Part shown: positions 4,001 through 45,170 of the stretch, one piece after another | Layout: each line of letters begins with the position of its first letter | Numbering within the stretch: the first letter of the stretch is position 1 | NCBI GenBank assembly: GCA_013115125.1 | Contig: JABANN010000189.1 | Span: forward strand, 1 to 55,104 | Length of the DNA stretch: 55,104 bases | From: Perkinsus olseni | Lineage: Eukaryota | Reading direction: 5' to 3' | Notes under the pieces: generated by a model | What the model was told of the DNA's origin: nothing | The model's input: the letters and a program-made list of their open reading frames with translations, nothing else | The model's database searches: none | Position numbers and translations under genes: made by a program

Positions 4001-7000
4001 GCCCGTAAGTTTTTACTTCTCAAAGCTTCGTATTTGTGATGGCAGCATCGAGCACTCGGACGGAGTTGGTTACATGCGCGTCGCTCTCTCGTCGTGGTGT
4101 TGGCTACTTTCCTCGTGCCAGGTTGGAGCTTTGTCCGAGACTCTGAGCAAGATGGGAGGCATGGACTCCTCCGTCCCTGATGCGGTCTCTAAGGTACTGC
4201 CAGAAGATCTAGTGGCTTAGTACTCGGATGCGTCGTAGCTGAGAACGTTGATAGATCGCTTTCGTGTGCGCGAGGTCCCGGGTTCGATCCTAGCCGTTTG
4301 CAAATTCGAATATTGCGGTTTTTCATGGTCGGTTGTTATTGATTGAAGTGTTCATTTTCTTGGCACCTTGGTTGCCCTTCCAAGGTCTCTCAGGTCTTGT
4401 CATCACCGAGCTTTCAAGATGCCAGGAACACTCTAAAGTTGGCTGTTAAGTGAGTAGCGCGCGCCCTGATGATCGATTATCGTAGTATGCCAATCTCTCA
4501 GAGCTCTTTGTCCGCCACAGTTGGCTGACAGTCTGGGTCGCATTGAGGAGTATGGGAGGGGTCTTTTGTCAAGCTACAGCCGAGGTAGGCACAATTTTGG
4601 ACTACGGGAAGTCCCTGACTACGGGACTCGGGGACCCCGGGTACTGATAACGAATCATAATTTTTTGAAGCATCCGTCTCGAGATGTCTCCAGTTGGTTC
4701 TGGAGTGGCCGTTTGTAACGGGTGAGGACTATCTTTGTCGTCCAGGTACCATGTTCGAAGAGCTAGGGTTTTACTATGTTGGACCGGTGGATGGGCATAA
4801 CCTGGATACGCTCGTTACTGTGTTGAAGAACCTGAAGCAGTCGATGGATGAAGGAAAGATAACAAAGCCAGTGCTGCTGCATGTGAAGTAGGTTGGAAAG
4901 TATATTAGCTAAATTGCGGTGTGACAATTTCGCTCGCCCGGTGGTTGCTGTAGGACTGAGAAGGGGCACGGGTATAAGCCTGCTGAAGTGGCTCTTGATA
5001 AACTGCACGGAGTTACTCAGTTTGATGTGAAGACTGGTAGGTATCAAAAGGTCGTGGGATCGATCCCCGGCGGGTGCATTTTTCCTCATTTCCAGGTAAG
5101 AAAGAGGCTCCTAAGAAGACCGTGAAGGAAGTGAAGCCTGAGCCTGCTGCTGCTGCTGCGGCCCCGAAGAAAATGGCGTACACTGATGTATTCGCCAAAG
5201 CGTTGATAGCGGCAGCTGAGAGGGACAGTCGGATAGTTGCCATCACGGCAGCTATGCCGGGAGGTAAAAATGCTACCGGCACGACCATAACCTACTGGCT
5301 CGAAATTTATCGGGAAAAATGGAACTTTGTGCTATTGTGGATGAGCTACCGATTCAAACATTAAAAGCAATTTTCCTACATGGATTGGAGACTAGCAAGA
5401 GCGCTCGCCCGTTTGATCGATTATGTGTCAGGTACTGGCCTTCATCATTTCGAGAAGAGATTCGGCCTGGACCGTATGTTTGATGTTGGCATTTGCGAGC
5501 AGCACGCGGTGACCATGGCGGCGGGCATGGCGGCTGAGGGCCTGGTCCCCTATGCGGCGATTTACAGTAGTTTTATGCAGGTAAAGGGGTGCCACTCCAG
5601 TGGTGGTAGTGGAGAATCTTTTGTTGTTATTTTCAGAGGGCGATAGACCAGATGGTACACGATGTAGCATTGCAGAAGCTACCGGTAGGGAGGCTCTGCG
5701 ATGAGATTTTTTTCGCGCGCCACGAAATTGTGTAGGTACGATTTGTCCTTGATAGAGCCGGCTTTGTTGGTGCTGATGGTCCAACTCACCACGGCCAGTT
5801 CGACTTGGCCATGCTTGGCTGCGTTCCTGATATGAAGATATGCGCGCCTGGCGATGAGGTGGGTCTTGGGATTTATGGAGAGGATTTGACCACTTTGGGT
5901 TTCTAGTGGAACGGATCTCCTGTGGGAGAGGAAATCATCCGGGCTCTTGTGGCGTTTTTAGTCTTTTCTTGTGTCGGGGGATGTGGCAGAGTCTTTACAG
6001 TTTCTCAAGCTTAGTCCCTGTCAGCTACGTCATTACCTCGTCAATTGCTAGTATGGGTCATAAGCGTATCTTAGGTCGATGCTTGCTCATGACGATAGCG
6101 CAGTTGATGAGCACGTTGCTTTCGACCGACTTGTGTTCGTTCAGGCGGAGTTGTCGAATATGATCTACACCATGTCGAAGCTGGATGATGGTCCCAGTGC
6201 TGTTAGATTCCCCCGGGGCTCAGGAGAAGGTGAGGGCAAGGCCTTGCAACGGATATTCTTCCTATGTTGGCTCTATTTTCTCTTTCTGCAATCCCGTAGG
6301 GTTTTAGGGCTCATAAAACTTGGTTTGATGGAAATGGGGTAATACCCCAGGGGTATGATTTCTCGAGCCATGTAGATGTAGCTTGGATAAAATATTTCTG
6401 TCATTGATCGCGCATTAATAGTTATTGCTTCCATTTACTACCATCACGAAGCTTATGGTGGGTCTCAGGGAACTGGCGTGAAATTTCTCGAATTGTGAGT
6501 AGATAAATTGAGATTGAATTTATTCCTAAATTTTTTTTGATTTTTTGGCTCGATAAAATCGCAAGTCTCAGCATAACTGTTGAGGGGGTACTGGTGTACG
6601 CCTCTGACATCCTTCGTGTCGTTGCCACTCGCCTTCTCGTAGTGCGGCTTTACTCGCTAAAATCGCACGACGACAAGTTGGGTGAAATTTCCCGCTGCTG
6701 TTGCTTCAGGCGTCCCTATACCTGTAGTACCGGAGTTCTTAGAGCCGGGCAAGGGCCGCGTTGTTAAGGTAATCTCAGCTAGAGGTGTCAGAATAATATT
6801 TGGTGTCCTCGTCTCGCAGGAGTTTGACGGCAAGGAAGAGGAAGCCAGCGTCGTCCTGCTCAGTTTGGGGGCGAGGTTGAGTGAATGCAAGAAAGCCGCA
6901 CAGTGATATTAGGGGAGGGGTATCTTTTCTCTGTGTATCTTACTAGCTTCGACCTCTCAGGGCGCTATCTGAGAAATATGGTCATCATGTGACTGTGGCT

Positions 7001-25483: not shown

Positions 25484-28400
25484 CTACTCTTGCTGACAGG
25501 CTGATGATGATAATGACAACTCCTCTCCGTTGATGATGGACGATACCATCTTGTCGAATTCATCGGCTGTCGGTTGACGATCCCAGGCCCCCTCTCCGCC
25601 GGCGGTGATCGCCGTGGAATCATTTTCCTCACCCCCCTCGCCACCATCAGCAGCATTCGATGATGAGCCCTCCTCTTCAACACCCCAGACCTCCTCAATC
25701 TCCTTATCAATATCGGGGATATCTTTCACTCGCGGAGGGATATGATCAACCTCCGCCATATCATCATCGCACGCCTCCGTCTTCACCTCCGCCTTCACTG
25801 CATCATCATCATCATCATCATCATACTCCTTAAGGGAGATGTCGGCCTCCAACTCGATAAGTGGAGGCCTCTCGTCAACTGTATACCCCACAGCCGACCT
25901 GCAACAGCAGATGATGGACAACAGGCCACCCCTAGGCTTCCTTACCTCTCACGATGGGAGTTGGTCCGTAGATGCTGTCTGATCTCCCACGGTGATGCCA
26001 GAGTGACGTTACAACGACAGCCTAAAGACGCCACGGCGAGTGTAAGACGGCAGAATTCGACAACTCGACGATAGAAAACAGTCCGGCTCGAAGAGAAGAC
26101 GACTTGCGAGAATGGGGCTGCTATGCCACGTGGTGGCGCGAGAACGGCGGACGTCGAACTATGATATTATAATAATAAGGTCACTATGCCATCGCGTGGT
26201 GGCGACGCGAGAACCTTGTCGAGCGTCTTTCGTCTTCTCTTACAATAGTTAGCTCCAGCTGCCTCGCCTTTGGTCAAGTAGGAGATATCCTCCGTCTTCA
26301 TATCATCCAACTTGGGCAGAGCGCATTCCTCTTTAGGAGAATCTTTAGCAGGGAAACTGAGAAAGAGCAAGATTTCACAAGATTGCAAGATTCCCCTCTT
26401 ACTGCCAACCAGCTTTGTAGTATAGTCGCGGATCCTGTCCGACTTGATAACACCAATCATGATACTCCAAGTTAGACTGAAAGGTGGAACTTGGCGAAGC
26501 AGAGAGCAGGAGGCCGCCGCCAAGACCCGGCCGATAGTCATATGAGACTCACCCGATGGGCGTTGATGCCGGTATGGAAGTGGACAGCTTCGGGCGACTT
26601 GAGATGGGCATCACAACAGGTGCACCAGAAACTGAAGAGAGGGGTTACGAGTGGCGATGGGCGTACTTCAGGGGAGGACATGAGGTAACAATTGAAACGA
26701 CTATTCCAACCACCGGGAGCGCGAGATCGCCTTTAGTACAATAACACGCGACCGCAGTGAGACTGTAACCTTGCTATGTTACCCAGGCCACGAAGGGAAG
26801 CCGGGATCATCACGTAATCTTCCAGCGGAATGTATTCCGACGACAACTTGAATGGTGATTTTGAGTGTCCGCCAAGTGGTAGTGAGCTGGTAAGGATCCC
26901 CTCCAGCGGCATTGATAATGACAACTCCCCTCCTCCCCTTACTGCCGCGGTCTGCCATTGGCACTCAGGGCCAGCTTTACTCGGTGCCCCTTGACCCTCG
27001 CAATCTCCCTGTTAAATGCCGTGACGATGCCGAACCGTTTCCGCAACTTCTCCCGTCTCGTCACGTGGGCCTGATGAAAACGTCCCCGCAAGACTGACGA
27101 CCAGACAACCCCATCATACCGGGTCAGCCCGATGATCATACTCGACCTTCCGCACCTCCTCTTGGTCTGAACAATCATAACATTACCAACTACTGCCGCC
27201 TCGAGGCCCCTACCCATGCCATCGGTGTCCATGAACAGGTTACAGACGTTACAGCGGACAGAGGTATCGAGGACACCTACAGAGTGGCAGCGATGATGAC
27301 CGACTACAGCACCAACAGAATGACAGATTTTCTATTAGGCGGTTTAGCCTTCTGCCAGCTCTACCGCATGATCTACCCTAATCAGCAGGAGGCGTCTTCC
27401 TAGGACGACGGAGAACGATAATTACACTAACAGTTTCAATTCGATCAGCATTGATGAGCTGGAGCTCTACACTCGACTTCACCCCGTCAAAACGGGGGGA
27501 ACGTCCGAGGTCATGTGGAACCGCAGGATACTCAGAATGAGACCGCGAAGCGGGCAATACCACACCACAGCGAACACGCCTATCAAACTAGCTCTTGCCC
27601 CCAGAGGTCCAACCAGCCTTACTTATCTCCTCCTCCGGCGGGTCCTCAACAAGTCGGCCGGCCAGCGTGACGCAGATTGGCTGGACGTCAGTCAACCAGC
27701 AGCCCGCTTCCTCCGACCACTCTCCAGCGTACTGCACACCCGGACGACCGTGGAATATCTCAGCCTCATGCCTACGTTGAGAAAAAGGAAGTGATAGCAA
27801 GAGAGCAAGATACAGACAACTCACAGTGGAGTGATCTTGGCCACCTTAGCCTTCATCCTCATCGGCCTATCAATCTCGTCCTCCCTCGGCCGTTTGTCGA
27901 CCCGCCACTGTCCTCGTCCTACATCCTCGTCTCGCTCCACCTCCCCTTCAGAATACCTCCGTCGACGAGTCGACTCACTGAACAGCGTCCGTATTGACCT
28001 CACGACAAGCCGATCAACTTACTGCCTTCGGATGGCGTCCGGGTTGGGACTAAGGCTAGTCCGACTACCACCGCGACTGGCCAGGAACTCCTCGGGTGTC
28101 CGACCGTAGGGGTGGATACTCCGATCGGTGTAGATCGCCTGGAGGAACTGGTAGGAGTTGGACGATGGCGGCGGCGAGGGGGAGTGGAGGGAGGAACTGA
28201 GGAGGAAGGAAGCTCGGCAGAGATTTCAAAGACATGCTGGAAGCTGGTCGGAGATCGACCATGACCACTGGAAGGGAGAACTCGGAAAGCGTGCGTGCCA
28301 TGCAGATCACAGGAGTATCTCCAATCGCGAAACATATCCTGCTATATGGTAGGAGGACCCTATGGCATCTCCTCCTCCCCCTCCTATATCTTCACAGCGA

Positions 28401-29334
28401 AAGATGATGAAAACTCAGCCATCTGCCAATCAACAGCCTACTCAGTCTAATGCGACAATGCTAATGCTCAGTCTAACTCGATACTACTGTAGCGTCGGCC
28501 GTCAACACCCGTACCAGCACCTACCCAAGCGGCTGCCGTTGGCTGGTGCAGCTGAGTCGACTCCCAGGTGGGGTATGAACTCCCCCGAGAGATTCAAAAT
28601 CGCAACTATCACTGCTGCTGCTGCTGCTGCTGCTGCTCGTCTCCGACCTAAAATGCCGACATTGCATACGAGGTGGTGCACCGATAGGATCTCCAAGTAA
28701 AAGCATTTACTGGAGGAGTCAAGCAACCGATCTCGGGTGCTCCGCTCCGCCTGCCGCCGGCCCAACTCAGCATGCTGGGCCGGCTAGGCTCGGCAATAGT
28801 CTACTCATGCATCGTCGACGAGGCCTCAGTCCCCCCCCCGCATTACTACCTCGAGATGGCGGGTGTCAGTCTGACTCTGGACAAGGACCTGACAAACGAC
28901 GGGACGAAGGAGTTCGCAACTGCCGCTAAATTCCAAGCGTTCCGAAGGAGATTCATCATTTGATAATACGCCACTACACGACTTCTCGATTCGGGATGCT
29001 GAGCCGAGATGGCCCTCGTGTTAGACCACACCCTGACCTACCTCGATTCGCTCGGCCGTGGTGTGAGGGATACTCTGAGCGCACCTTGAATGGTGACAAT
29101 ACTAATACTGTGAGGTCCCCTTCGCTTACCCATAGAGAAGTCCGTTGGAGGAGGGAAGGTGGGACGTGGTGGTCTGGAGGAGGTGGTGGTGGAGGCAACA
29201 GGATTGGTACCTGGATGAAGCGGAGGTGCTACTGCTGATGGATGACCAGGCCGGGATCCCGAACATGATTCTCAGAGCGACGGAGTACCTCCATGAACGC
29301 GCCATTCTGCCTCGAAGCGTCTATCATATGACAT
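25484..29334 (-). CDS. multi-exon hypothetical protein family A, copy 2
   Basis: Paralogous exons MSYDRRFEAEWRVHG|G, RPPRPTFPPP, SFPAKDSPKEECALPKLDDMKTEDISYLTKGEAAGANYC and CCCRSAVGYTVDERPPLIELEAD...SSSACQQE. Confidence 0.55.
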
Positions 29335-29473
29335 GACAAATTAAAACAGTAAATAAAAAAATTAATAATTAAAAAGGAAAATTACGGCCTTATCTCATTT
29401 GTAATTATTAATTTTATTTTCGCCATATAAAATTGAAGTGTAGCCATCTCGAGTTCTGAATTGTTGGGTTCAG

Positions 29474-30088
29474 TCAATGTCTGACAATCCTCAAGGGAGC
29501 GGAACACCTGCCGTTAATAGACGACACTCCTGACGATGGTCGATCCGACCGAATATGAGTTCCCCTCCCCGTCATCCTACTCATAATAGACCCCCGGCTC
29601 TCTGATGTCGGTGGTGATCTGCTGCCTTGATACGGGTCATCTTCATCACTACTGCTGTCGAACCCTCCATCACCACCAACAGCCACCATAGCTTCCCTAT
29701 GGTCCCGGGTCTGCACATGCTGTCGCGCGGCCCATATACTGGGCAACGACTCGAGACAGGCAGGGCAGTAGTAGCCGTCCCCCAGCGGACCTTATCGATA
29801 CGTCACAACACCGAGGAACGCCCTGTGACTTACGTATTTGTAGGCCTTCCCGGACCAGAGCATCTTCAGTACCTGAATGTATGGTCCCAGAAAGCGAGGA
29901 GGTAAGAGACCCTTACCATCCTCTCCCGCCTCATCAATCCTGTCCATCGGCCTCGTGTAGATCTGATCGTCGTGCAGGTCTACACGGGAGGCCGACACCT
30001 CGATGTCGAAGACGGTGGAGGGTAGGGACCCGGCAGTGCTCGGCATGAGCGTGCTAGAAGTGGTGGGACGACCCGCAGCCGCTGCCAT
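29474..30088 (-). CDS. multi-exon hypothetical protein family B, copy 2
   Basis: MAAAAGRPTTSSTLMPSTAGSLPSTVFDIEVSASRVDLHDDQIYT; PSIWAARQHVQTRDHREA shared with copy 1. Confidence 0.6.
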
Positions 30089-31399
30089 TACGTTAAAAAC
30101 TACAACCGCTACTAGGATGAGGCGGTGGTGTGGTACGGAGTAGAGAGCGATAAAATGGCACGGAGACCGGAGTTCCCGGCCGACGCATCCCAACTAAGCA
30201 TTGAACACCTGAACTCAACGCGTAGTCGTAGTGAAATTCATTTCCAGTCATTCATGCCAACGTAACAATACTTAAACTACGAGGCATCATGATAGTTTTT
30301 GAATGCTTCGCATCACACTTTCGGTTGAACGGAGATGTAGGAATACCCCTCACCCTTCACGACGTGATCTGTCAGCATAAACTCGCTGAAGTCAATTGAA
30401 TTCGATTCGCGCTCACCAAAGGTTACATTCAACAGGGAAGACAAGACAGCCGCGAGAACCTACGAGTCCGCCTGATATTGAAAGTTCAACGCCTTTCAGT
30501 CAGCGTGTAAAATCCTTTCTCGACCAGCATCGGGTAGGCTTCCCAAGAGCACTAGTACCGGTCATACCGTTCCTCCAGCAATTCCCGCCCCATCCGGGAA
30601 GCGAAGAACTTACCGACTTAGCGAAGAACCTAGCATCCCTCAAGAGCTGCACTCCTGTGACGAAGGTGAGCAACAACGCTATCATCCCCCTAACGACAAC
30701 CATTCACCAACTGGTCCCTCGCAGAAGCGTCTGAGTGAGTCCACTACGAAGAAATCAAAGCGCAATTTTGTGCTCGAAGAGACACAGGGGAGATCCAGGT
30801 TACTGCCTGGGATGACCTGTAGGAGTGCCATTCATGAGGAAGATTTCCGTGCGAGTTTTTAGCCTGCTGAAACCACCATGTACATCAATCAACACATTCA
30901 AGCAATTCTAGATACCCTACATAAACATGCAACAAAGAACTACAGGACGAGATGAAACTTCACTGAGCAAAGACCATTCACTGAGCTCAGAAGCCAGACG
31001 GCTATAAACAGAAGGCGTGATGGCGCCAAATGGTCAGCGAGAGTCCGTGCCGCGGCCAAGATTGGCTAGAAGAAGAAGAAGAAGATTACATTGAGGGCAG
31101 CATAGTGACCATGGGAATAATAAGGATGCGAGTAACGCTACCTTCAATTTGAAGGGTAAGATTCGCTTGAAGCGAATCTTACTCAGACCTCTTGACTGCG
31201 AATTGATTCCGGAGATCTCGGCGCAACATCCAGTAGTAGCCCTGAGAACGGCAAGCTCGGCCACTAAAGGGTTCCCAAAAATGCTCGTCGTGTAAGCCAC
31301 AGTATCGTCATTCGCCGGCGGCAGTCTCAGAATCGGAGCAGACACTCTGATGTAGCTGATCAGGAGACCTACAACCATATCTCATTGCCACCTCAACTT

Positions 31400-34300
31400 C
31401 TCGATATAACCCTACTAAGGCTTCCCGACAACCACACGCGCTCATACCAACTCTTACTGAACGGGCAGAAGTATAACTGAAAAGGCAGCGTGCTAGCAGT
31501 ATACCATTACGACCCATTGACTCAACCCAACCCCCAAAGTGCTTCCAAAAGTCCATTCTCTTCCCTTGCATGAAGTCGTGGTGGAGAGCTAGGCCAAAGG
31601 CCTACTCGTTGTGGATCTCACGACAGATCTCTCGTTGTGGATCTCAGGTTGTAGCGAGCGGCGATATTAAAACAGCTCATTATTGTATGACGATCCCCAT
31701 ACAGCAGTTATCAGGTAGAACATGATCACAACGGAGCCACCGCAAAAACTGTAACTCCCCATCAACAGCTGTATCAACTCAGTGGCAGCCGCAGGCGCGC
31801 GCATACCCCTAACAAATAGCAGTTCCCTCTCACTTCTCAACGCCCTGTGCTGGGCCTCCGAGATCGTAGTGGTACCACTGCGCCCGGAGAAGTAGCGGCC
31901 GTCATCATAGTGGGAGGACTAGAAGAGCCGAAAGCGATGGTGGTAAAGCTCCTAATCCCGCAGACCGGACCCGACTATTGTACCAACAGCATCAGCAAAC
32001 TATCGAGTATTCGCTTACAGTCACCGCTGAAGGGCATGGGGGCACCAGCGTTCTCACGATTCGGCCAACTCGGGTGCACGCAGCCCCCCTCGTCCTGAAT
32101 GAATTTTTTTGCGCAATTTATTTGTGCTCTAGCATGGAATACACGTTTGTTGCTACTAGCAACTTGCTAGTCAAAGAAATTTTATGGTACTATCGTCAAT
32201 GATGATTCGCCATACTCTACTGGACCTTCGCAACGAAGAAGCGGAGCTCGACGCAAACTTCCCGGGTTCGAACCCCGGCACGGCCCTTTCTTACGTATTT
32301 TTCGGGCCATCTACCATGGCGCATGACCATCTTTCGCTGTAAGAATGAGGGTGGAAGCGGTTCCATATTTTCAGACACAGACCCGAGCTTCCGAGTGGTA
32401 TATGTCTCGCGAGTCCAATCATCGTAGTCATGGAGAAATAATTTGAACGAACGAATGCACAAAAAAGCGCAGAAGTGACGGTATATGCTCCGCTCGCTTC
32501 GCAATTCAGCGATCCATGTATCATCCTGTGTAACCATAGATTTATCCGGTCCGCCATCCGCCACCTATAAAGCTTCCCCTCGAGAATAATTTTTCTCCAA
32601 TATATTCTCAACAAGGGTTGTAGGCTCATTCCTAGGACCCCTTCTCCGATACATACCAACTTTCCTACAACTCGCCCGATCAACGCATATTGATGATGTA
32701 CATACCCTGGATCGTTGTTTGGAAAATTCCCTTGATGTGATGTAACCTAACTTCATACTCCAGACGACCGTTCAGAAATACCTCAAAGCTGAGAGTCTTT
32801 CCAGCGAGTAAGTGTATCATTCGGAAACACATCGTAAGAACCCTTGATATTGTGAGGGCGGCGCAAGTACAGTTCCTGCGACCTGCGACCTCACGGATGA
32901 AAAACAACAATACCCGACCATTCCCTCTTCCCATCATGCCGCTTACTATGTTCTCCTATTACTAGTAGTAGATTCTGCGACTATGTATCATGTAGTACAT
33001 TACTATAGCGCAATAAGGGCTTAATTCCCGAGTGATGGGCCGTCATACCGCTGGAGGCTCATCACCTGCTGCGTCATGGACAAGGCACACTCAAGCGACA
33101 ACCAATAGACCTTCCGCAAGGAGTCGTATCCCCAGAGCAGCAGATACCTCTTCACAGCACAGTACAAAAAACTTCCACCGCGCGCAGACAAAAACATTAC
33201 TGTCTTCTCGTATTACCTTCTCTCCGCGCCCTCCTACCTGCAAATTCTACCTTCCAAAGACTTGCGATCGATTATCCAGCGGGCCATTTGGTAACTACGT
33301 GATTTCACATAGGGACATATCCACCAAGAGGCCTCTCAACTGATGAAATGTTATGTTCGTCAGACATAAGTACGATTCATTACTACGAGTACGTCAAGAG
33401 TTATCAGGAAATCTGACACTATTACGACTCTCAGGATAAAACGCAGATCTGGGATCATTCCAAGTAAAAAAAAGAAGAAATGTGAACTACCACAACTACA
33501 TGAAAATATAACCACTAGATTCTAGGGAGATCTCAGGATGCTCTCTTCACATTCTCCGCCGAAAAGTCGCGCCGCTCAACCAACCAACCTCGATAGTATG
33601 ACACTCGATCGTTCGTCGTCTACTCCGATACTTCGATATTCGACAGTCAGCCTCCTGCTGGGCAACAACGACATATGCAATACAACATTGCATGCGACAG
33701 CGTCCACTGCGATGTAAACCCAGGTCCGCCAACTTCAAGGAACTGCTGCTATTCTCGCGTTTACAACAATAAGCCACAGCAAAATCGTGCCACAGTTGAA
33801 GTTCACTGACGTAATACACGTACAGGGAGAGGTCCTTCGAGCCCATTCTGCATACAGATGACCTACTCCTGCTTAAGACACCCTCAACGTTGCAACAACC
33901 GTGAGGCGGTCGATGCCCCCTGCTAAGACCCTTACCACGGTTAATACGAGCCGCGCCGTTATGAGCACTACCGATCATTCATAAGTTCACTGCTTCGCTT
34001 CGCTCAACATGAGATAATATAAACCCATATAAACCGTCACCCGTATGAGATAATATAAACCTCGGCGTACTGCTATGGCCGTTCGCCTCTCTGGAGTAGC
34101 CGCTCTGCCACTCAGACATCATCTCGCGGAACTCAAGGAAAAGAGCACCTCCAGAGCCCCTCATATATTTTCATATTCCATAGCCTAACATTGAAGAGAG
34201 CGAAATGCTTTCATTCACCATCTTTCCCAATCTAAGATGCGTGACTGGGGAGGACTTCTTGCGCGATCATCACACGACGCACAATCGCGACATAGTCTAA

Positions 34301-34900
34301 CAGCGGCGTCGTACGAGAAAGGCAAACAGAAATCTACTTACATACTCACCTGACGACTAGTCATTGACGAACGTTTACATAGACCTTTATTCCGCTTAAT
34401 ACCACGCCACCGGTCGTCGAAAGAGTTCCGATCACAAGCCCTTTCGAATGTTCCCTCGACTACCATCCACATTACATCTGCACATCATGTTCTCATGCCG
34501 CATTTCACCGACTACAAGCTCCGCCATATAAAAAGCTTCCGTCCAGAACAGAGTCCCAGTCCTTCCGGTCCCTCCAAGCTTGGTGGCCAGCCTGCGTTAT
34601 TAGTGGCCTCACCATGGGCGGCGTTATGAGCCTAATCGATATGAACAGTAGTTGCGTCACGCTTTTGGCTCACTGATTTTTCACCACTTCCTTACCGTGG
34701 TGGGCAGGCAACCGTACAAAGCTGTGAAATACTCCCGCACCCTCTCGACGTACGGAGACCATCCTATCGCAAGTCCCGCCGAGTATATGCCCACAAGATT
34801 TGCCAAGACCGCTGTACTGGCAATGACGAATAACATTACATCAGAGACGCATCGCGAGGGACTCGTCCACTCCTAAATGCAAGGAGCAGACGTGCACAAA
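31400..34900 (+). mobile_element. decayed Ty3/gypsy-like pol (RT-RNaseH-integrase) remnant, apparently interrupted at ~32.1-33.0 kb
   Basis: Motifs appear in canonical order: RQPHALIP...LRPIDS (~31425-31525), LVVDLR (31631-31648), LPQG (33111-33122), KFYLPKTC...YVISHRDIST (~33242-33325), YDTRSFVVYSDTS (33597-33635) and a possible GPY/F-like segment (~34750-34820). Many stops. Confidence 0.5.
32250..32290 (+). other. intergenic tRNA 3'-end fragment
   Basis: ccggg-TTCGAAC-cccgg-cacggccc-ttt with a perfect T-stem; no recognisable D or anticodon arm. Confidence 0.65.
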
Positions 34901-36389
34901 CACGGGAGTATTACCTCACCAACGCGACACTCGAGGGGCCTCCACTCGGTCAAGATAAATGCCATGCAATCAAAGAACATGAGTGGTGTATCACGAATTG
35001 AGTTTCTCGAGTGTCAGGTTGGATAACTTAACAAGAGTCGTTTACACTGGTCCCTTCAGTTACAACTACAGTAATAACATCAATACGTGAGCTGGGCACG
35101 AGTGGAATCATGTAGTGACACAGACTTTGTCACACAGTCAATAGTGTGCAATATTTCCTCACATCAAAGCGCTATAGCGTGAGAGCACGAGACCATATTT
35201 TGTTCGGCATGGGAATTTCATTCTTAAAGTCAATAGTAGGAACATATCCTCTATTCATTGGACCACCATTAATCAGGGCAACTACTCCAACACAACACAA
35301 GTGCCGTTAGAGAAACTTCATAACGTCTAGGGCACATATTCATGCCTTCTAGAAGTCTGAGACATCCAGTGGCTGATGCACAACATGTGCGAAGTCCTCG
35401 GGGATCAGATTCACGAATCAGCTTCGTCGAACACATACCGATGCCACATATCGGCGAAGACTGCAGCACAGGCCAGCGCCGAGTATTTTGTTCAGTGATA
35501 TATGAAGGCACTTTTTTCATTCACAATTTTAAGTCGTATTGCATCCTGTCATGATTCACGCCTATGAGCCTACACCGTCGCAAGCGAGCAGCACAGCAAC
35601 GTAATAACTTAGAGCTCATCTCTCCATTTGCCTACAGCAGATGAAAAATGCAACCACAGGACGAGCTTACTAATGCAGCTACTTTTACAAGGACAAGTAC
35701 CCCCAGAAACTACCATCCATCCAGGGCTTCTCTTATGAGCAGCCGGCGACAGGAAGAGCTTTGAAGACCACTACTGTGTGGTCTTGGCGTGAGAGCCGTC
35801 GGCGCCCTTTATGCGAAGAACCGCGGCGACAACCAGGTACAGCAAAATGCAGAAGGGAAGCCTCTATCGAAGCTTCTCATATTTTCACGTAGCAATGTCT
35901 AATGACAGTCTACAATATACACAGCATGAGCAAGCTTGTAGCATCACGCAACTACGAAACATGATACCTCGACATCTAAAACGATCACCAAATTTCGGAG
36001 CCTCAAAGCCCTCTCACCACGCGACGAAATACCACCGTTTCCCTCTCCGGCCTTGGTGCGGAGGAGGGTACACGTCAGGAAGGTACACGTCACTCAGACA
36101 GAACGGGGCCCGCCGAACCCATTCTCTGGTGGCTATCAGAGCGGCGGTGTTGGCAACAGATAATAGACCCTTGTCATACCGCTTCACTACTCCAGCACAG
36201 CACGAGCCGCTCGAATTCCGCATCTTGCTTTTCGCTCGCCCCTAATCCGCGACCGCGGCAGCCCCATCTGCGACCGCGACATAATCTCGTTCACCCACCG
36301 AACTCTCTTCAGTCTCAAGTTGCGATATCATATAGCCAAGCTCCCGTATATGCTCCGAATTTCAGCGTTCCATATTACTACCCTCCCAA

Positions 36390-36938
36390 ATGACTACCAC
36401 CATCTTCCTCATCGCTCTTGCCAGCGGCGTGGTTGGCAGCATCTTCGACGGCTACACATTGCCTGGAGATGAGCAGTACTGGAGGCTCCGTGGTGACTCT
36501 ACTGTGCCGGTCCCCACTAGCACTACCTCCACCACCGCCACCCCTGCGACCTCTACAGAGTCGGCCCTCGACCAGTTACTCAGCTCCCTGGTCATTCCGG
36601 AATATCGACATGTTCCCACCACGGCCGAGCCTCTGTCCATCGAGGAGCAGCTCAGGAGGTTGGAGATACCTTATTATGGTATCCCCACAGCAGCTCCTAG
36701 TACCACTACCCCTGCCCCGCCGGCGACTACATCCAAGTTGGCGATACAGCAGCTGCTCGAGATGACCATTCCTCTCGAAGAAGGTTTCTCTCCGACGACC
36801 GCTGTCGAGACGAGTGCTCCTCCTCCTCCTCCTCCTCCTGCGGGCAATCTCCGGGGTGGCGAGCTGACAAGCTACAGCGAAGCGGTGGCACCGGTCAGCT
36901 GGTGTGCAGTGGTGGCGATGATGGTGACGTTGGCATGA
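36390..36938 (+). CDS. Thr/Pro-rich mucin-like secreted, probably membrane- or GPI-anchored protein
   Basis: Signal peptide MTTTIFLIALASGVVG; three repeats of (A/S)(L/I)xQ..L...IP separated by Thr/Pro linkers; hydrophobic C-terminus WCAVVAMMVTLA. Confidence 0.8.
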   Translation: MTTTIFLIALASGVVGSIFDGYTLPGDEQYWRLRGDSTVPVPTSTTSTTATPATSTESALDQLLSSLVIPEYRHVPTTAEPLSIEEQLRRLEIPYYGIPTAAPSTTTPAPPATTSKLAIQQLLEMTIPLEEGFSPTTAVETSAPPPPPPPAGNLRGGELTSYSEAVAPVSWCAVVAMMVTLA

Positions 36939-37249
36939 GGGCGACGGGAAGGGGTACGGCCGGCAAGCCCACGAGCCTACCGGCGTCTATAATATTGTTA
37001 ATTAACTATGAATGATTGAACGTTATTTGATGACATTATTTGCACTGTCCAAATAACAAAACCGCTGTTGAGTTACAGTCAAACAGAAGGGTAGGAGTAC
37101 CTGACATGAGACCTAAGGAATCATTGACGCGCTTAAGCGTAAAGTTCGCGCCGTGAACGCCGTGAGCGAACATCATCTAAAAGAACGAATAGCATTCAAC
37201 GTTACTCTCGGCATTACTGGGCTCCTGACAGCCCGCTCCGTAACTAACC

Positions 37250-37600
37250 CGGGAGGCTGTCTCTGCACGAGGACCTAATAAACGACCAGGCTAAGCACTT
37301 CGCTTCTTCCGCTGAACCACCAGCGTTCCGGAGGAGATTCATCAACCACTACTTCGTCACTTCTCGAATCGATTCCGGGTGGTGAGTCGGGGTTTTTAAG
37401 GAGACCCCTATTATAGGGGCCCTATATGTACCGCACCCAACCCTACCTCGAATCGCCTGGCCCTGGGGTGAGGAATACCACGCCCTACCCATAAAGTAGT
37501 CCGGTGGAGGAGGGAAGGTGGGACGTGGTGGTCTGGAGGAGGTTGTCGAGCCAACGGGATTGGCACCTGGGCAAAGCAGAGGTACTCTAATACGGTTCGA
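37250..37600 (-). pseudogene. third, more diverged fragment of family A 5' exons
   Basis: GANPVGSTTSSRPPRPTFPPPPDYFM|gt and LMNLLRNA match copies 1 and 2; the downstream exons were not seen. Confidence 0.55.
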
Positions 37601-38810
37601 AGACCACGCCCCCATCCCGAACGGTCAAAGTATCTGGATCGACTCCATCACGCGGTGCTTGACAGAGAACCTCCGTAAAGCAGCGGAAACTTTCAGGATT
37701 TGAATATGCGTATCTTGCGTGATGGTGGGCGGGCGCTGCCTTCAAGGACGCTGCGCCCGCCCAGGGAACGGTCAATGAGGATTGCATAAGTTTCAGCACT
37801 GTTATTGGAAGGTTTTGTCGTTGATAATGTCCTCCTTGTACTTGAAGGGAGGGCCCTTGACCTCCACTCTGTTACGTCGATCCTTGATGGCATCATCAAC
37901 TGCTGCTGGATCGCACATCTTGAGGTAAGCTACCACCGTAATGGTAGTAGTGGGTAGGGGAATCTTACCGCACTGCGAAGGATATCATTAATAAGGCGCG
38001 TTGAAATATGAATGGGAGGCGTTAGCTCGTGTAGTAGATAGACCTATGAACGGCGGGAAGTGGGAGTAGTCATCTTCGTTTCAGCGTTGCAAGGTCCTCT
38101 AAGAGGATGTTCAGCAGCAGCACCTCCTCGCCCTACGGAAGTGCTAAGCCTACGCCTACTAGTGGTAATAATGAGGGAAGGTGAAGGGCTCCTAGCGTAG
38201 GGTACATAACTATAGGTAGGATTCCATCGGGTATTCGTATGACAATATTATAGGTCAATGATGATAGCCATCAGCATTCGATTATTAGCATCTTATTGGT
38301 GATAATGAAGGAATAGTCATAGCTACTTCCGTATGTGCAATAACCCTTGTACTTGTATACATCTACAAGTACTGTATATGTAGATAAGTCATGTGTGTGC
38401 AAGCACGTACATGTAATAGTACGACGGGCGGCTAGGCGTACATCATGAAGTAGTCCGATCGGTCGGTTGTATGTTATTCTGTATGAAGTAGTAGTATTGG
38501 ATTATCATTTTGCATCATCACGTAATTTCGTGAATCCATGATGAGCTTCACATGATCCGTTATAAACATTCATGATGGTCTCATCATCAAGGGGAAATTG
38601 TTGATGTACTCCACCCATCACGCGGCATCTCCAAGTCCACGCCTCTCGTATATCTCAGAGATGCAGTACCACACATCTCTATTAGAGATTCTCTAACATC
38701 TAGATCACATAAGGGATGAAGCCGGAATTGTAGTGCTATCACCTCGACCTTGACGATTCGAGAACCAAAAATACCACCTTCTTCAGTCATATGCCCATTT
38801 CAATTGTGTA

Positions 38811-41800
38811 ATGGCTCGAGTGGTGTCTCTCTTAGGGAAGAAGTCCAAAGCCCCTAAGAAGGTAACTTTGACGCAACTCAACAAGTTCCGTCGACAGGGC
38901 CACAAGATTACTATGATGACTTGTTACGATGCTATGACTGCAGGTAATAGCGCTGGTAGTCGAAAGGTCCCCGGTTCGATCCCATCACCCTACAGGTATA
39001 GCAGAGGAATGCGGAGTTGAACTGCTCCTGGTCGGGGACTCCGTTTCTAACGTTGTACATGGTCACGACTCAACCGTCCCCATCTCTATGGACGCTATGG
39101 TGATGACCTCTCCTCGCCCGATGGGATATCCTCATGCTGCTGCCATCAGATCCTACACACCCAAGCCGTCCGTAGAGGCCTAGCACATCATCGGCCTATG
39201 GTCATCGGTGATATGCCTTTTGGGTCCTTTCTTACCATTGAGGACGGTGTCAAGAACGGAGCCAGGTAATAATCATTCTAGCGTCCACATCGTCATAGCA
39301 TGAGGGTCGGGGAAGGGACGGGGTCTAAAATTTAGCGAACCATTTAGACTCTAAATGGTTCATGGTTCATAACCTACTCTTATAGGTCGCGATAAATCGA
39401 CCAGTCGACATCTTGTCGCTTCTATCTACGTTTTTCTGCTTTTTATTGCTCTATACCTAAAGTCTGCTGCTTCTGGTACGCAAATGCCTTAGTGTGCCTT
39501 AATGCCTGCTGCTTATGCTTCTTCCTCTGCAGGTTCATCAAGGAAGGTGGTGCGGACATTGTGAAGCTGGAGGTAACTAGGAATGGTTGGGATACTGCGT
39601 CTTGGCCGATTGCAGTGTGCTTAGTCTCCCGCCAGCTCCCAAGAGTTTTCTACCGAGTTGATTCGTCGTATGACTGCTGCCGGTATTGGTGTGGTGGGCC
39701 ATATCGGATTGACACCGCAGAGTCATGTTCAGATGGGTGGTTACAGGGTAATGATGGGGAAGGTATCGGGTTCGAATCCCGGCTGCGGCATCTCAATGTT
39801 TAATCAGATACAAGGCAAGGCTGCTTCTGCTGCTTGTCATCTCATAGACTTCGCCAAGGAATTGGAGGCAGCAGGCTGCATCATGCTGGTACGCCTTTCC
39901 GCGACAGATCGCCCTGCCGTACCACTCCATCCGTAACTCAGGTCATGGAATGTGTTCCTGGAGAAGTAGCCCGTTTAGTGACTGAAGCCATCAGTATCCC
40001 AACCATTGGCATTGGCTCTGGCCCTGGTAGATCATTACAACTTTAGCTCTTGCATTTCCTCAACGATTCTCGCTTAAGATACTTCTGGCCAAGTTCTTGT
40101 TGTCCATGATTTGCTTGGTTTAACCCCGAGAGCACCCAAGTTGGCGAAGCAGTTTGTGAATGCCCGCGCTCTTATGAACATCGGCGTATCGAAGTAAGTG
40201 GCGCGAAGCCTGGTTACCATTCGTCCTCGAGATCAGCAATTTTACCGTAGGTACGTCCAGGAGGTGAAATCAGGGCAGTTCCCAGGACCGGAGACCTACA
40301 CTCGGATGAAGCCTGTTGAGTATGATATGCTGCTTGAGGAGCTCAACACGACGGGACCTGCCGCTGCTGTCGAGGGGGAATCTGAAAGTACGCTTTCGTT
40401 CTATTCCGACTTACCATCTGAGGCTGCGTTGCAGGTCGGCCTGCTGCTGAGGAATCTTCTCGAATGATGATGTCCTCCAATCCCACACGCGTGGCTGTAG
40501 TTGGAGGTGGTGCTATGGGTACATTCTTCGCCCAAGCTTTATCGAAAAAGGTGACCTTACCGGGGATTGAACTCGGGTTTGACGAGTCCTGTATCTCTCT
40601 CTAGGTCCCTGATGTAGCGCTGATGACTGGACCTCATTCCCATGCATCAGCCATGAACAGTGCGGGTCTTGACTGCATAGACGGCCAAGGGAGGGCCCTA
40701 CCCGCCTTGGAAGGCCCACAGCCCGCCGCCACACCCTTCCGCGTCGTCCACAACGTAGGCCCGTAGCTGATAGTAGTCAATGACCTCCATCCTGCAGGCT
40801 GACGAGTGCCTCGACGCCTTCGGTGGCACCACACCGGAGCTGGTAGTAGTAGCATCCAAGGCCTGGCAGTTAGAGGACCCCGCCGTGGTCAAGAAGCAGC
40901 TTTCGGGCCTCCTCGTCGACGGCGCACCTGTACTGAGTGTAAGAGACCCATCGAAGTAGCAACGGTCGTTTGAGTGGATGCCATGCTGTCTCAGATTCAG
41001 AATGGTATCGGAGCCCTCGATGCACTATCTATTGTCAGCAACAACGTCTTCCAGGTGAGCTACAGTAGCAGCAGTGTCTCCCGCCCGGTCTTGGCCTCAG
41101 TAGTGCCTACTGTTGCCTTAAACTCGTCATCGTGGTAGTTTGACTAAGTCTAGAGCATTCTTGTTGAGTCTTTTTCTGTTGGCTTGCCATTCTTTCATTA
41201 CCTTACTTTTGCTGACGAGTCCCTGTTGGTGTCAGGCCGTGACGAATGTCGGATGCAACCTCCCCAGGCCAGGCGTCCTCGAGGTTAATATCGTACCGGG
41301 CACCGAGGCGTGGATGAAGGTACTCCTTTTGGTGTGGGCTTATGCCCGTCATCTTGGTACTGTTCAGCTCATCCCACCGAAAACTGCTGCTGCTACAACC
41401 TCGCAGTACCGAGAGGACCCCCTGGCCCGACTCCTCACGACCTGCTTCAAGGATGCGCAGATCCCCTGCCAAGTCTCCGATGCTGTTGATGATGACGAAG
41501 CCCAACAGATGGTAAGGGCTTGCGGGGGAGTGTTCGGCTGGTACGCGAGATAATGTGTAATTAGGTATGGGATAAGTTGATAGTGAACTCTGCGATCAAC
41601 CCAGTTACGGCAGTGTTCGGTGTCCTTAATGGAGATATATTGGACAGCTCTCAGCTGTATGCCTCGCTGCAGCCAAGAAGGCAGTATGCATGGGGTCTGT
41701 TGTAGATACTCCCTTGCGTCAGCGGCAGCTCACGAGGCGTACAACGTCGCCAGGGTTATGGGTGTGAAGGTAGCAGCCTCATCGACAGCTAGTCAATATC

Positions 41801-42467: not shown

Positions 42468-45170
42468 TCACCAACAATCATCTCTTTGAGGAGCATGCGG
42501 TACACGGAAAGCAGAGATCAAATCGGCGACTTGTAAAGTGGCGTGTATCATATCTGATGTATTTTCCACTGCATCGTAAAGTGCTGTGAGGTTACCTATT
42601 TTCTGTGCCATTGGAACCGCTATAAAGTGGACGATGTAGACAGAAGCGAGCTTGCCAACCCAACCATCGGGCGAGATGAACTCATTGAGGTCGTCTAGGG
42701 TGGAGTAGGGGGGAATGCCTTCTCCTGTGACGATGCTGGCTGGCTCGAATGATACGTGAATGGTAGTCGTGTAGTTGAGCAGAGCGTTGACGCCCCTCTG
42801 GTCGATCTCATAGCTGTGACGATGCAGCCAATTGAGGTAGGTTGTACTCCACTCACCGGTTGCTGTTGATGATACCATATAGAAAATACCAACATTTATA
42901 CACCGACCATCCACGTGAGTCGACCAAAGCATCAAAGGCGTATCTTTTGACTTGCGAGTACCATGGGTAGCAGGAGAAGCAAGATACTCCATTATTCTGG
43001 GTAGGGGGTTCTGGACGAAGAAAGTGTCCAAGTCGAAATAGAATGCATCAAAGCCCATATGAATGAGCATTTGAGCGACAGTGTACCGGTGTATTTGGCT
43101 CTCGGAGTAAGGGACTTCCCAACACACGAGGCCACTCAACTGAGACAACACCCATCAGTAACGCGCTTCCCTGCTGGGGCTCACGACGCTCATCAGTGCA
43201 CGGCATTCGGAATGGGCAGGTTCGCCAAGGGAGGCCACTAAGACTGCAGGGATGCCAATAGGGCTGCTGGTGACCCACCGAATGCTGCCTGAGGGATGGC
43301 GCTGATGATGAACACGGGCATAGAACGCACGTTGAAGTAGATCCATCCATGCAGTGCCGTATACAGTGGTGAAGGGCACAACCCTCTCTCTTGTGCTGAT
43401 GCCATCAGTTGTACTCCAAGATGATGCTACACTATCGGCAGCTTTGAACATAGTACCGACGATGGTGTCTGAATAAAGGATATGAGCGAAGATCGACCAA
43501 TGTCATCATCATAAATCATGATTCATAATCACCAAAAAAACAAAAACATGACCAACACCATCAACATCAACATCAACACCAACAGCAACAACAGAATGTT
43601 GTTACTTTCATGATCTCTCAATAGGGCATCCTTCTCCTGGAATGGCATCTCATCAATTAGCTTGGACGAGCGGTCCCCCAACGGCAGGAGGGCTCGAGCG
43701 AAGGACGGTCGAAGATCTGAATACCGTCGCTTCATCTTGGCCGAGGCATTTGCGTATCTGCTAGGAATCGAGATGAGATGGCGGTGAGGAGGTGGGATGG
43801 TTACTCGTGGAACTTGTTCCCTTTTCCGAGATCACCGAAGTGCATCAGGGCCTGCATGATGGGCCAGTCTGTAGCACCGTACATAGCCAGGGGCAGGCTA
43901 TCGAGGAAATCGGTAGCAACTGCTGACCATTTTTCGAAGTACCTGAGCGTAGTAGGGGGAGAAGGAGATGATTCACAAAGGTTTGAAGAGTCGACCAGCA
44001 GCGAGGGTCATATAGAGGGCACCGTACAGAATGATTTAATAGGAATGACACTATCAGCCTGGCAAGCGATCCCTTGAAAGCTTCACTCAACCACGGAGGG
44101 CGCCCCTCTGTAAAAAGGGATGCGCCCGCAGAGTGCATCATTGGTGGACAGTCTAAGCGAGACGTACGTAATGAAGGACCCCCAAGCGTCTCTTGTTGTT
44201 GACGTACTGAGTGAGTCTATTGCCAGATGTAGTGGACTGGACTATCGTGAGGAAGACCACTCCACACAAACACTCCTCGACAGCTTCGTCGATGCGCTCA
44301 TTACCCAAGGTGAACAGATACCTGTCATGAGGGGTGATGATGAAACCAGGCATGCAGTAGAACTCCTCACTCAGTAGCTTGGCCCAATGCTGAGGCGACC
44401 ACTTCGTCGACCATGCCCTTCTCTGCCCCTTCAGCGAAGGTGATGCCCAGGCCGAGGAGCTCTCGCCAGTCCAGATAACCTGTGATGAGTGAGCGCTAGT
44501 TGCTAATCAAACATACGAGAAGTACCGTTCCTTTGAGGACAGCAACCCTTCTCTAACCTCTCCTTATCGACCCCCATCATGGGCTGGTAGTAGTGGATGA
44601 GCTCAAATATGGGCCAGCGTGAGAGGGCTGTGTAGTACCTTACTATGACAATGATAAATCATCCCCCCAACTGGTTGCACGACCAGGGTATGGCAGCGAT
44701 GGAGTGCTGGACGAAGTCTCTCCAGTAAGAGGCCAACTCTTGGTCACCGGCATGGGCGGACATGTAAAACTGCAGTATGGCCAGCATCAGCACACCTGAG
44801 GGCAGCACGATCGAGCATACCAACTTTTGAGCACTTCACCGATAGGGCACTCCTGCTCGGCCTTCTTTTGCATCTCATCGGTGCCAAACACCCAGCCAGC
44901 CCAGGTCAGATTGACTTTGCCCCAGAAAGGCTCAGTCGTGGAGGTATTCAACTGCCCTGTGACGTTGTAGAGGGTATTCCAACTGAGGACCTGCCCCGAC
45001 GAGCAGCAGCGTGGACGATAGGCAGTCGAGGGTGCAACCACGATTGATCCGGCTACCTCCTTAGCCTCGGTACAGTCGAAGTCATAGAAGAGACCCATAT
45101 GCTCTGTGTGGAGCTGCACGAATCCGGCAACTAATGGTATTAGGGCGGGCAGCCATTGACGGAGTAACAT
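42468..45170 (-). CDS. nucleotide-diphospho-sugar transferase (GT77-like) family glycosyltransferase, multi-exon, secretory
   Basis: Signal peptide MLLRQWLPALIPLVAG; C-terminal domain with GFDAFYFDLDTFFVQNPL (DxD), INVGIFY and DQRGVNALL. Confidence 0.7.

What the first reader, a model, noticed from the sequence alone, without database searches (positions are those of the whole stretch)
4194..40604. Spliceosomal introns built from tRNA 3'-end fragments of apparently different tRNAs, in three unrelated housekeeping genes
Seen: of roughly 50 introns in DXS, CBP80 and panB-panE, at least seven carry a tRNA T-arm/B-box, often with an acceptor-like 3' strand. They are 4194-4393, 5037-5095, 7243-7288, 8567-8776, 38944-38995, 39748-39807 and 40551-40604 (antisense). 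The fragments differ from each other (tails -gtgca, -aggca, -cggca, -ggtca), so they do not look like one SINE family, and I saw no SINE body or poly-A. Inference: this may be an undescribed route to intron gain or remodelling by capture of tRNA fragments or their cDNAs. Alternatively the fragments could be selected intronic B-boxes (TFIIIC sites) or T-arm hairpins acting in splicing or small-RNA release.
Basis: partly seen in the sequence, partly recalled or inferred. Interest (0 to 1): 0.88.

Follow-up and report, generated by a model that had tools for sequence, protein, structure and literature searches.

The report
tRNA-gene tail fragments inside Perkinsus introns
Several short introns of a Perkinsus (clam and oyster parasite) genome consist largely of the tail end of tRNA genes, which may mark a way that new introns arise, although that origin could not be tested here.

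Summary
All 7 named introns carry a degenerate tRNA-gene 3' portion: variable loop AGGTC, T arm/B box, acceptor 3' strand ending C72-A73, no CCA. A T5 run follows within 25 nt in 6 of 8 copies. An eighth copy lies at 32257-32286, outside any secure intron.

GGTTCRANYC occurs 10 times against 1.9 expected. The T-run and the CA at a fixed offset were not used to find the copies, and both are far above chance (p about 1e-6 to 1e-8). No 5' halves, no shared element body and no poly-A were found.

The window is Perkinsus olseni-like. RNA contigs show that 2 of the 7 introns are spliced.

In 5 minimal introns (46-60 nt) the fragment makes up 50-76% of the intron. Acceptor tails differ as they do between tRNA species, but every T stem is of one type with no compensatory change. 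The source is therefore a few tRNAs, or one diversified family.

Best reading: 3'-anchored, 5'-truncated copies of Pol III tRNA genes or pre-tRNAs that sit in introns as neutral relics and may have seeded the short ones. Intron gain is untested because no sister genome was available.

All 7 lie in plus-strand genes (7 of 60 introns against 0 of 96). This is unexplained.

The parts
4194..4393 (+). DXS intron (200 nt). It holds tRNA-gene 3' fragment 4273-4302 (AGGTC, T arm, acceptor-like CGTTTGC, A) and a T5 run at 4319-4323.
   Evidence: The gene finder predicts the intron. The 3' edge fits the P0001 alignment, which restarts at 4394. The T-stem 3' strand is decayed (3 of 5 pairs).
5037..5095 (+). 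DXS intron (59 nt). Fragment 5049-5078 plus T5 at 5079-5083 makes up 59% of the intron.
   Evidence: Spliced GT..AG in RNA contigs of 4 of 4 runs..
7243..7288 (+). DXS intron (46 nt). Fragment 7248-7277 plus T5 at 7278-7282 makes up 76% of the intron. The T stem is intact (5 of 5 pairs).
   Evidence: Spliced GT..AG in RNA contigs of 4 of 4 runs..
8567..8776 (+). Intron (210 nt) of the gene downstream of DXS (CBP80-like; label weak). Fragment 8601-8630, T5 at 8636-8640.
   Evidence: The gene finder predicts the intron. RNA contig pieces of all 4 runs begin at 8776.
38944..38995 (+). panB-panE intron (52 nt). Fragment 38965-38994, with a decayed T-stem 3' strand and no T-run.
   Evidence: The gene finder predicts the intron. 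The PanB Pfam match starts just after it.
39748..39807 (+). panB-panE intron (60 nt, in frame, no stop codon). Fragment 39761-39790 with an intact T stem and no T5.
   Evidence: The PanB Pfam match breaks at about 39750. My gene finder missed it because it reads through in frame.
40551..40604 (+). panB-panE intron (54 nt) holding an antisense fragment at 40552-40581 (minus strand). This is the weakest copy. Its 'terminator' T5 is the reverse complement of exonic AAAAA.
   Evidence: The intron is predicted by the gene finder only.
32257..32286 (+). The T arm is perfect and a T5 run lies at 32298-32302. It sits in non-coding DNA of unresolved status, in a region of minus-strand genes.

Best explanation
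The eight segments are decayed copies of the 3' portion of nuclear Pol III tRNA genes. Each runs from the variable loop through the T arm (B box) and the acceptor 3' strand to the discriminator, and usually on to the oligo-T terminator. They come from a few tRNA species that share one T-arm type.

Every copy keeps the gene's 3' end and lacks the 5' half. I therefore infer a 3'-anchored, 5'-truncating copying process. The most likely one is reverse transcription of primary tRNA transcripts, which end in the U-run and lack CCA, followed by insertion.

The copies persist mainly in introns. In a gene-dense genome that is where insertions are tolerated, and in sense orientation the oligo-T can serve as the polypyrimidine tract.

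In the five minimal introns (46-60 nt) the fragment is 50-76% of the intron. There the insertion probably created the intron or replaced its body.

Shown: the anatomy, the non-randomness, splicing of two introns, and the lack of 5' halves and of a shared body. Inferred: the RNA intermediate, neutrality and intron creation.
For: - Motif enrichment: 10 hits against 1.93 expected. A 22-mer consensus gives 4 hits against 0.00 expected.
- T5 within 25 nt downstream in 6 of 8, against a background of 0.033 at random intron positions (p=3.5e-8, or 8e-7 without the antisense copy). CA at the C72-A73 offset in 6 of 8 (p=2.4e-6). None of the 8 has CCA.
- No 5' half. The Rfam tRNA model does not match any of them. 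ARAGORN at default settings finds only the real tRNA-Ser. Its relaxed-threshold full-length calls are no better than calls made with the upstream sequence shuffled; for example, the i4194 call recurs in 174 of 400 shuffles.
- No shared sequence outside the 17-18 nt T-arm core.
- The conservation profile mirrors conservation between tRNA species: B box 0.83, AGGTC 0.66, T stem 0.57, acceptor 0.35, with C72 in 7 of 8.
- The fragment takes up 50-76% of the five short introns, which are no longer than ordinary short introns.
- 6 of 7 intronic copies are in sense orientation.
- Boundary repeats of 4 nt or more occur in 5 of 7 fragment introns against 33 of 149 other predicted introns (p=0.0098). 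The downstream exon starts with GT in 5 of 7 against 43 of 149 (p=0.029).
- P. marinus is reported to hold more than 500 tRNA genes of only five types (PMC3706591, sections 10 and 13 read), so source genes are plentiful.
Against: - All 8 T stems are one type, with 0 compensatory pairs. This fits a single source family better than many tRNAs.
- No parent tRNA could be assigned, because the organism's tRNA set was not available.
- Orientation (6 of 7) is not significant (p=0.125).
- The boundary-repeat and GT excesses fade against RNA-confirmed introns alone (4 of 13, p=0.16; 3 of 13, p=0.06).
- All 7 copies lie in plus-strand genes: 7 of 60 introns against 0 of 96 in minus-strand genes (Fisher p=0.001). 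A random scatter does not predict this.
- The intron lists come from my own ad hoc gene finder. It recovers 14 of 15 RNA-confirmed introns. I edited the plus-strand list by hand: one prediction was swapped for the confirmed 3274-3566, and 39748-39807 was added.
- No reverse-transcriptase signature was seen (no poly-A, no clear target-site duplication beyond splice-site-like AGGT).
- The copies were found through the B box, so copies that have lost it would have been missed.
Confidence: 0.45

Rival explanations
1. One dispersed mobile family: a tRNA-derived SINE or an introner-like element whose conserved module is the B-box/T-arm end. The copies have decayed so far that only this module is recognisable.
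For: The T-stem type is uniform, with only one-sided changes and 0 compensatory pairs. AGGTC is present in 6 of 8. Four of 8 copies lie within 3 mismatches of one 22-mer. i4194 and i7243 share an exact 17-mer. i5037 and i7243 both end GCATTTTTC. Boundary direct repeats of 4-6 nt resemble the direct repeats of Amoebophrya introners (PMC7789003, passages read).
Against: No shared body or termini appear outside the T arm. Acceptor positions 66-71 are near random while C72-A73 are kept, which uniform decay from one source does not predict (Mann-Whitney p=0.018 on few columns). There is no A box, poly-A or terminal inverted repeat. A covariance model built from the 8 copies finds no further copy in 55 kb.
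Confidence: 0.2
2. DNA-level capture. Pieces of tRNA genes are used as filler when double-strand breaks in genes are repaired, creating or remodelling introns.
For: The terminator T-run and the lack of CCA also fit a DNA origin. AGGT-type boundary repeats of 4 nt or more occur in 5 of 7. tRNA genes are very numerous in Perkinsus and are cut by Dada transposons (PMC3706591).
Against: Random capture should give any part of a tRNA gene in either orientation. Here 8 of 8 copies are the 3' end and none shows a 5' half, although power to detect 5' halves is low. Dada transposons insert at the A box, not near position 40.
Confidence: 0.15
3. Selected elements: B-box-only TFIIIC sites (like the extra-TFIIIC sites of yeasts; recalled), or T-arm hairpins used in splicing or small-RNA release.
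For: The invariant columns are G53, T55, C56, A58 and C61, the core of the B box. A B box is present without an A box. The copies cluster in a few genes.
Against: B-box conservation is what the discovery motif selected for. Stem pairing is 80.0% against 79.9% in shuffles, with 0 compensatory changes. Two copies have broken stems. Short fragment introns are no more structured than 58 other short introns (MFE per nt -0.197 against -0.192, p=0.41). Selection on a B box would not keep C72-A73 or a terminator.
Confidence: 0.1
4. Chance resemblance in GC-neutral intron sequence.
For: One GGTTCGATCC match (2737, minus strand) is plainly chance, since it lies inside DXS coding sequence. The antisense copy at 40551 is weak.
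Against: 0 of 100 shuffles reach the observed count. The independent features (AGGTC, CA offset, T5) have p values from 1e-6 to 1e-8.
Confidence: 0.03

Closest known systems
tRNA-derived SINEs and tRNA pseudogenes lying in introns
   Same: Pol III-gene-derived sequence with a B box, dispersed in non-coding parts of Pol II genes. Some plant SINEs end in T-rich tails (recalled).
   Different: Only the 3' portion of the tRNA is present. There is no A box, no tRNA-unrelated body, no poly-A or LINE-like tail, and no shared consensus beyond the T arm in this window.
Introners and introner-like elements (Micromonas, Aureococcus, fungi, Amoebophrya, Symbiodiniaceae)
   Same: Inserted DNA forms most or all of an intron. 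Short direct repeats overlap the splice sites. The organism belongs to the lineage next to the dinoflagellates, where introners abound (PMC7789003 and PMC12130899, passages read).
   Different: There are no near-identical multi-copy family members and no terminal inverted repeats. The similarity covers only 17-22 nt of tRNA-like sequence. Neither 'tRNA' nor 'Perkinsus' occurs in the main text of the two introner surveys; their supplements could not be read.
Extra-TFIIIC (B-box-only) sites of yeasts and human (recalled)
   Same: An isolated B box without an A box.
   Different: These copies carry the rest of the tRNA 3' end and a terminator, lie inside introns, and show decay. Occupancy is unknown.
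Dada DNA transposons that target tRNA genes in Perkinsus marinus (PMC3706591)
   Same: The same genus. They show that tRNA genes there are very numerous and are involved in mobile-DNA events.
   Different: Dada elements are 4.7-11 kb and insert at TAGCTC in the A box. No Dada sequence lies next to the fragments, and the fragments start far downstream of the A box.
Primer-binding sites of LTR retroelements, and retropseudogenes of mature tRNA
   Same: Both derive from the tRNA 3' end.
   Different: Both would carry CCA (or TGG on the other strand), and a primer-binding site spans only about 18 nt. Here 0 of 8 copies have CCA, and the copies reach the variable loop.

Membership tests
Functional tRNA gene | Full cloverleaf with A box and B box, recognised by tRNA finders | tested here: not met
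   ARAGORN at default settings and Rfam at gathering threshold find only tRNA-Ser at 54886-54967. The Rfam tRNA model gives no hit on the fragments even at E<=10.
tRNA-derived SINE | 5' tRNA-related head with both A and B boxes | tested here: not met
   No 5' half was found. Relaxed ARAGORN calls are no better than shuffled-upstream controls.
tRNA-derived SINE | Shared tRNA-unrelated body and a poly-A, simple-repeat or LINE-like tail | tested here: not met
   blastn-short of the 8 regions against the window finds only the 17-18 nt T-arm core. The tails are T-runs or nothing. Only 55 kb was examined.
tRNA-derived SINE | Many copies genome-wide that fall into one consensus | not testable with these tools
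   No genome is held.
Introner / introner-like element | Families of near-identical introns | tested here: not met
   Within the window the introns share only the T-arm core. Genome-wide this is untested.
Introner / introner-like element | Target-site duplication or direct repeat overlapping both splice sites | tested here: inconclusive
   Boundary repeats are 4,4,4,1,6,1,4 nt. Five of 7 are 4 nt or more, against 33 of 149 other predicted introns (p=0.0098) but 4 of 13 RNA-confirmed introns (p=0.16).
Introner / introner-like element | Presence/absence differences between strains or sister species | not testable with these tools
   No related loci were found.
B-box-only TFIIIC (ETC) site | B-box consensus without an A box | tested here: met
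   GGTTCRANYC is exact in 6 of 8 copies. G53, T55, C56, A58 and C61 are invariant.
B-box-only TFIIIC (ETC) site | TFIIIC occupancy and conservation across species | not testable with these tools
   This needs ChIP data and sister genomes.
Retropseudogene of mature tRNA / LTR primer-binding site | 3' CCA (or complementary TGG) after the discriminator | tested here: not met
   0 of 8 copies have CCA after the discriminator position.

The most novel reading that the evidence does not exclude
Perkinsus has 'tRNA-tail introners'. The 3' parts of Pol III primary tRNA transcripts from several tRNA species are copied into coding exons at AGGT-like sites. They are immediately spliceable as minimal introns of about 45-60 nt, because the oligo-U terminator supplies the polypyrimidine tract and the duplicated AGGT supplies both splice sites. 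This would be an ongoing route of intron gain that needs no transposase, built from the cell's own tRNA genes.
Probability: 0.25. Interest if true: 0.85.

Novelty: new variant of a known kind. Interest (0 to 1): 0.58.

Why it matters
How new spliceosomal introns arise is known mainly from transposon-like introners. If tRNA-gene tails can form the body of minimal introns, that would add a source drawn from the cell's own Pol III genes. It would also explain why such insertions are tolerated: the terminator doubles as the polypyrimidine tract.

Perkinsus would then become a tractable system for recent intron turnover in the lineage beside the dinoflagellates, with cultured species and several sequenced species and isolates.

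If the fragments turn out to be ordinary decayed tRNA-derived repeats that merely survive in introns, the finding is a modest note on genome annotation.

Tried and rejected
- Whole genome: none is held.
- Rfam at E<=10 on the whole window and on 4150-8800: the tRNA model does not hit the fragments. There is only a weak mascRNA-like match at 7207-7276 (E=4.8), which I treat as chance.
- A strict T-arm hairpin scan found only 5 sites and was too strict for decayed copies.
- Relaxed ARAGORN suggested full-length tRNA-like folds reaching into upstream exons or introns (7188-7277, 4228-4301, 4991-5078, 39714-39790). I rejected these. With the upstream 80 nt shuffled, such calls recur in 66-290 of 400 shuffles at the 80% threshold and in 28 of 400 for i7243 at 90%. 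One search used a wrong option and was repeated.
- GTAGG after the 5' splice site looked like a D-loop relic, but it is simply the genome's usual donor consensus.
- Spliced-leader relics in the window: 3 hits against 1.8 expected, so nothing.
- Related loci for cross-species intron comparison: none in the metagenome contigs or the prokaryote genome contigs.
- My first gene-finder settings over-predicted (387 introns on one strand) and were retuned. The finder still merges neighbouring genes, so I used only its intron lists. One search was an empty script.
- Primer-binding-site and mature-tRNA retrocopy readings are rejected for lack of CCA.
- Literature: nine full-text searches found no paper describing tRNA-fragment introns in Perkinsus or elsewhere. 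Supplements of the introner surveys could not be opened and might list Perkinsus.


Full report
**What the window is.** A 209-aa exon translation (8778-9404) is 95% identical to a Perkinsus olseni protein and 72% identical to a P. marinus protein. An RNA contig end at 13088 carries letters that match the end of the Perkinsus L-type spliced leader, as printed in primer sequences of PMC3101222 (passages read). I therefore take the window to be P. olseni or a very close relative.

Gene labels:
- DXS is confirmed by Pfam on the matching P. olseni protein. That database model fuses DXS with the next gene.
- PanB and PanE are confirmed by Pfam on window ORFs.
- The CBP80 label has only a sub-threshold MIF4G hit (E=1.4e-3). 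The exon itself has no Pfam hit.

**The observation.** All 7 named introns contain a segment that aligns as AGGTC, a 5-bp stem, TTCGAnn, a 5-bp stem, 7 nt, then usually A.
- GGTTCRANYC occurs 10 times against 1.93 expected, and 0 of 100 shuffles reach 10. Of these hits, one is the true tRNA-Ser(UGA) gene at 54886-54967. One is coding sequence of DXS and plainly chance. Two palindromic sites are counted on both strands.
- A 22-mer consensus with up to 3 mismatches hits 4 sites against 0.00 expected. It revealed an eighth copy at 32257-32278.
- A covariance model built from the 8 copies and run without filters finds no further copy in the 55 kb. The next best hit is the 3' part of the real tRNA-Ser (17 bits).

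**Are they in introns?**
- RNA contigs from 4 of 4 runs laid on 1-20000 skip 5037-5095 and 7243-7288 with GT..AG ends. Only 15 of 58 joints were printed.
- For the rest I wrote a small dynamic-programming gene finder. It recovers 14 of 15 RNA-confirmed introns and 6 of the 7 claimed ones.
- The seventh, 39748-39807, is 60 nt, in frame and free of stop codons, so the finder reads through it. The PanB Pfam match breaks exactly there.
- The eighth copy lies in a stretch without convincing ORFs, in a region of minus-strand genes. Its status is unresolved.

**What the segments are.** Three features that played no part in finding them show that they are 3' ends of tRNA genes.
- AGGTC, a common variable loop, precedes the T stem in 6 of 8.
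- CA stands at the C72-A73 offset in 6 of 8 (p=2.4e-6).
- A T5 run, the Pol III terminator, lies within 25 nt downstream in 6 of 8. The probability at a random intron position is 0.033 (p=3.5e-8; 8e-7 if the antisense copy, whose T-run is exonic, is dropped).

None of the 8 has CCA, so they derive from genes or primary transcripts rather than from mature tRNA.

No 5' half is detectable. The Rfam tRNA model is silent. Relaxed ARAGORN calls that extend upstream are matched by controls with the upstream sequence shuffled.

**One source or many?** The evidence is mixed.
- For many sources: pairwise identity is 0.83 in the B box (the ascertained part), 0.66 in AGGTC and 0.57 in the T stem, but 0.35 in acceptor positions 66-71. 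C72 is nevertheless kept in 7 of 8. That is the profile seen between different tRNA species. Uniform decay of one element does not predict it.
- For one source, or a few related ones: all T stems are variants of CCGGG/CCCGG. There are only one-sided changes, 0 compensatory pairs, and pairing equals the shuffled control (80.0% against 79.9%).
- From memory, several eukaryotic tRNA families (Gly, Glu, Pro, Ala) share this T stem, so both facts can hold together.
- Outside the T-arm core the 8 regions share nothing. There is no SINE body, no poly-A and no terminal inverted repeat.

**Relation to the introns.**
- In the five short introns (46, 52, 54, 59 and 60 nt) the fragment takes 50-76% of the length. 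These introns are no longer than the ordinary short class, which runs about 36-70 nt. An insertion into a pre-existing minimal intron should have left an intron of about 85-95 nt, so creation or wholesale replacement is the simpler reading.
- Six of 7 intronic copies are in sense orientation. This places the T-run upstream of the 3' splice site, but with n=7 it is not significant (p=0.125).
- Boundary repeats of 4 nt or more (AGGT, GGTA, CAGGTA) occur in 5 of 7, against 33 of 149 other predicted introns (p=0.0098) and 4 of 13 RNA-confirmed ones (p=0.16). The downstream exon starts with GT in 5 of 7, against 43 of 149 (p=0.029) and 3 of 13 (p=0.06).
- These hints resemble the short direct repeats reported at newly gained introns (recalled for Daphnia; read for Amoebophrya introners in PMC7789003). 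They are weak.
- The short fragment introns are not more structured than 58 other short introns.

**An unexplained skew.** All 7 intronic copies lie in the plus-strand genes: 7 of 60 introns, against 0 of 96 predicted introns in minus-strand genes (Fisher p=0.001). Among introns of 100 nt or less the figures are 5 of 31 against 0 of 37 (p=0.016). The plus-strand list was edited by hand as described in the Against line, and the minus-strand list surely contains false long introns. I have no explanation. Gene age, expression level or replication direction could be tested genome-wide.

**Context from papers.**
- PMC3706591 (sections 10 and 13 and passages read) reports more than 500 genes for only five tRNA types in P. 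marinus, and Dada transposons that insert into the tRNA A box. tRNA genes are therefore unusually abundant in this genus and involved in mobile-DNA events.
- PMC3229502 (passages read) reports 15% tRNA-derived sequence in a dinoflagellate genome survey.
- The two large introner surveys contain neither 'Perkinsus' nor 'tRNA' nor 'SINE' in their main text. Their supplements were closed.
- Nine full-text searches found no description of tRNA-fragment introns.

**Verdict.** The segments are relics of tRNA-gene 3' ends with terminators. A 3'-anchored copying process from a few tRNA sources is the best reading (0.45). A single SINE/introner family (0.2), DNA filler capture (0.15) and selected B boxes (0.1) remain open.

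Intron gain is plausible for the five minimal introns but untested, because no sister-species or genome-wide data could be reached.

Noticed in passing
window 14509-20938 and 25305-30264; partial third copy at 37254-37585: A tandem segmental duplication of about 6 kb, 88-95% identical including the introns, carries multi-exon minus-strand paralogues with no Pfam match. A third, partial copy is 70-93% identical. Neither main copy holds a tRNA fragment.
   Followed up: partly
window 1067-9350 compared with protein P0001: The public P. olseni gene model (1094 aa) fuses DXS with the downstream MIF4G-like gene. RNA contigs end the DXS transcript near 7595-7599. Adapter-plus-leader-like loose ends at 7931 and 13088 suggest separate trans-spliced mRNAs.
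   Followed up: partly
window 7999, 5143, 11630, 12924: RNA contigs from several runs carry long (255-letter) loose ends at the same places, and these match nothing in 1-20000. They could come from another haplotype or paralogue, from chimeric contigs, or from exons elsewhere.
   Followed up: no
window 54886-54967: An intact class II tRNA-Ser(UGA) gene (55 bits) with T stem GCAGG/CCTGC. This differs from the T-stem type of all 8 fragments. No T5 run follows it directly.
   Followed up: yes
window 39748-39807: This 60-nt intron is in frame and has no stop codon. If retained it would add 20 residues inside the PanB domain. Gene finders are likely to read through it.
   Followed up: partly
whole window: AT skew changes sign with gene strand: negative in 1-14 kb and 38-42 kb, positive elsewhere. 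Exon starts after introns are often GT(A), so intron ends are ambiguous by 3-6 nt in many introns.
   Followed up: partly
window 14954-15130, 25774-25836, 43532-43603: CAT/CAA trinucleotide-rich runs lie in or next to the duplicated minus-strand genes. They probably encode acidic or His-rich low-complexity stretches.
   Followed up: no
window 19940-19993 (minus strand): A weak C/D-box snoRNA-like match (sR39 model, 23.7 bits, E=0.089, far below the gathering score).
   Followed up: no
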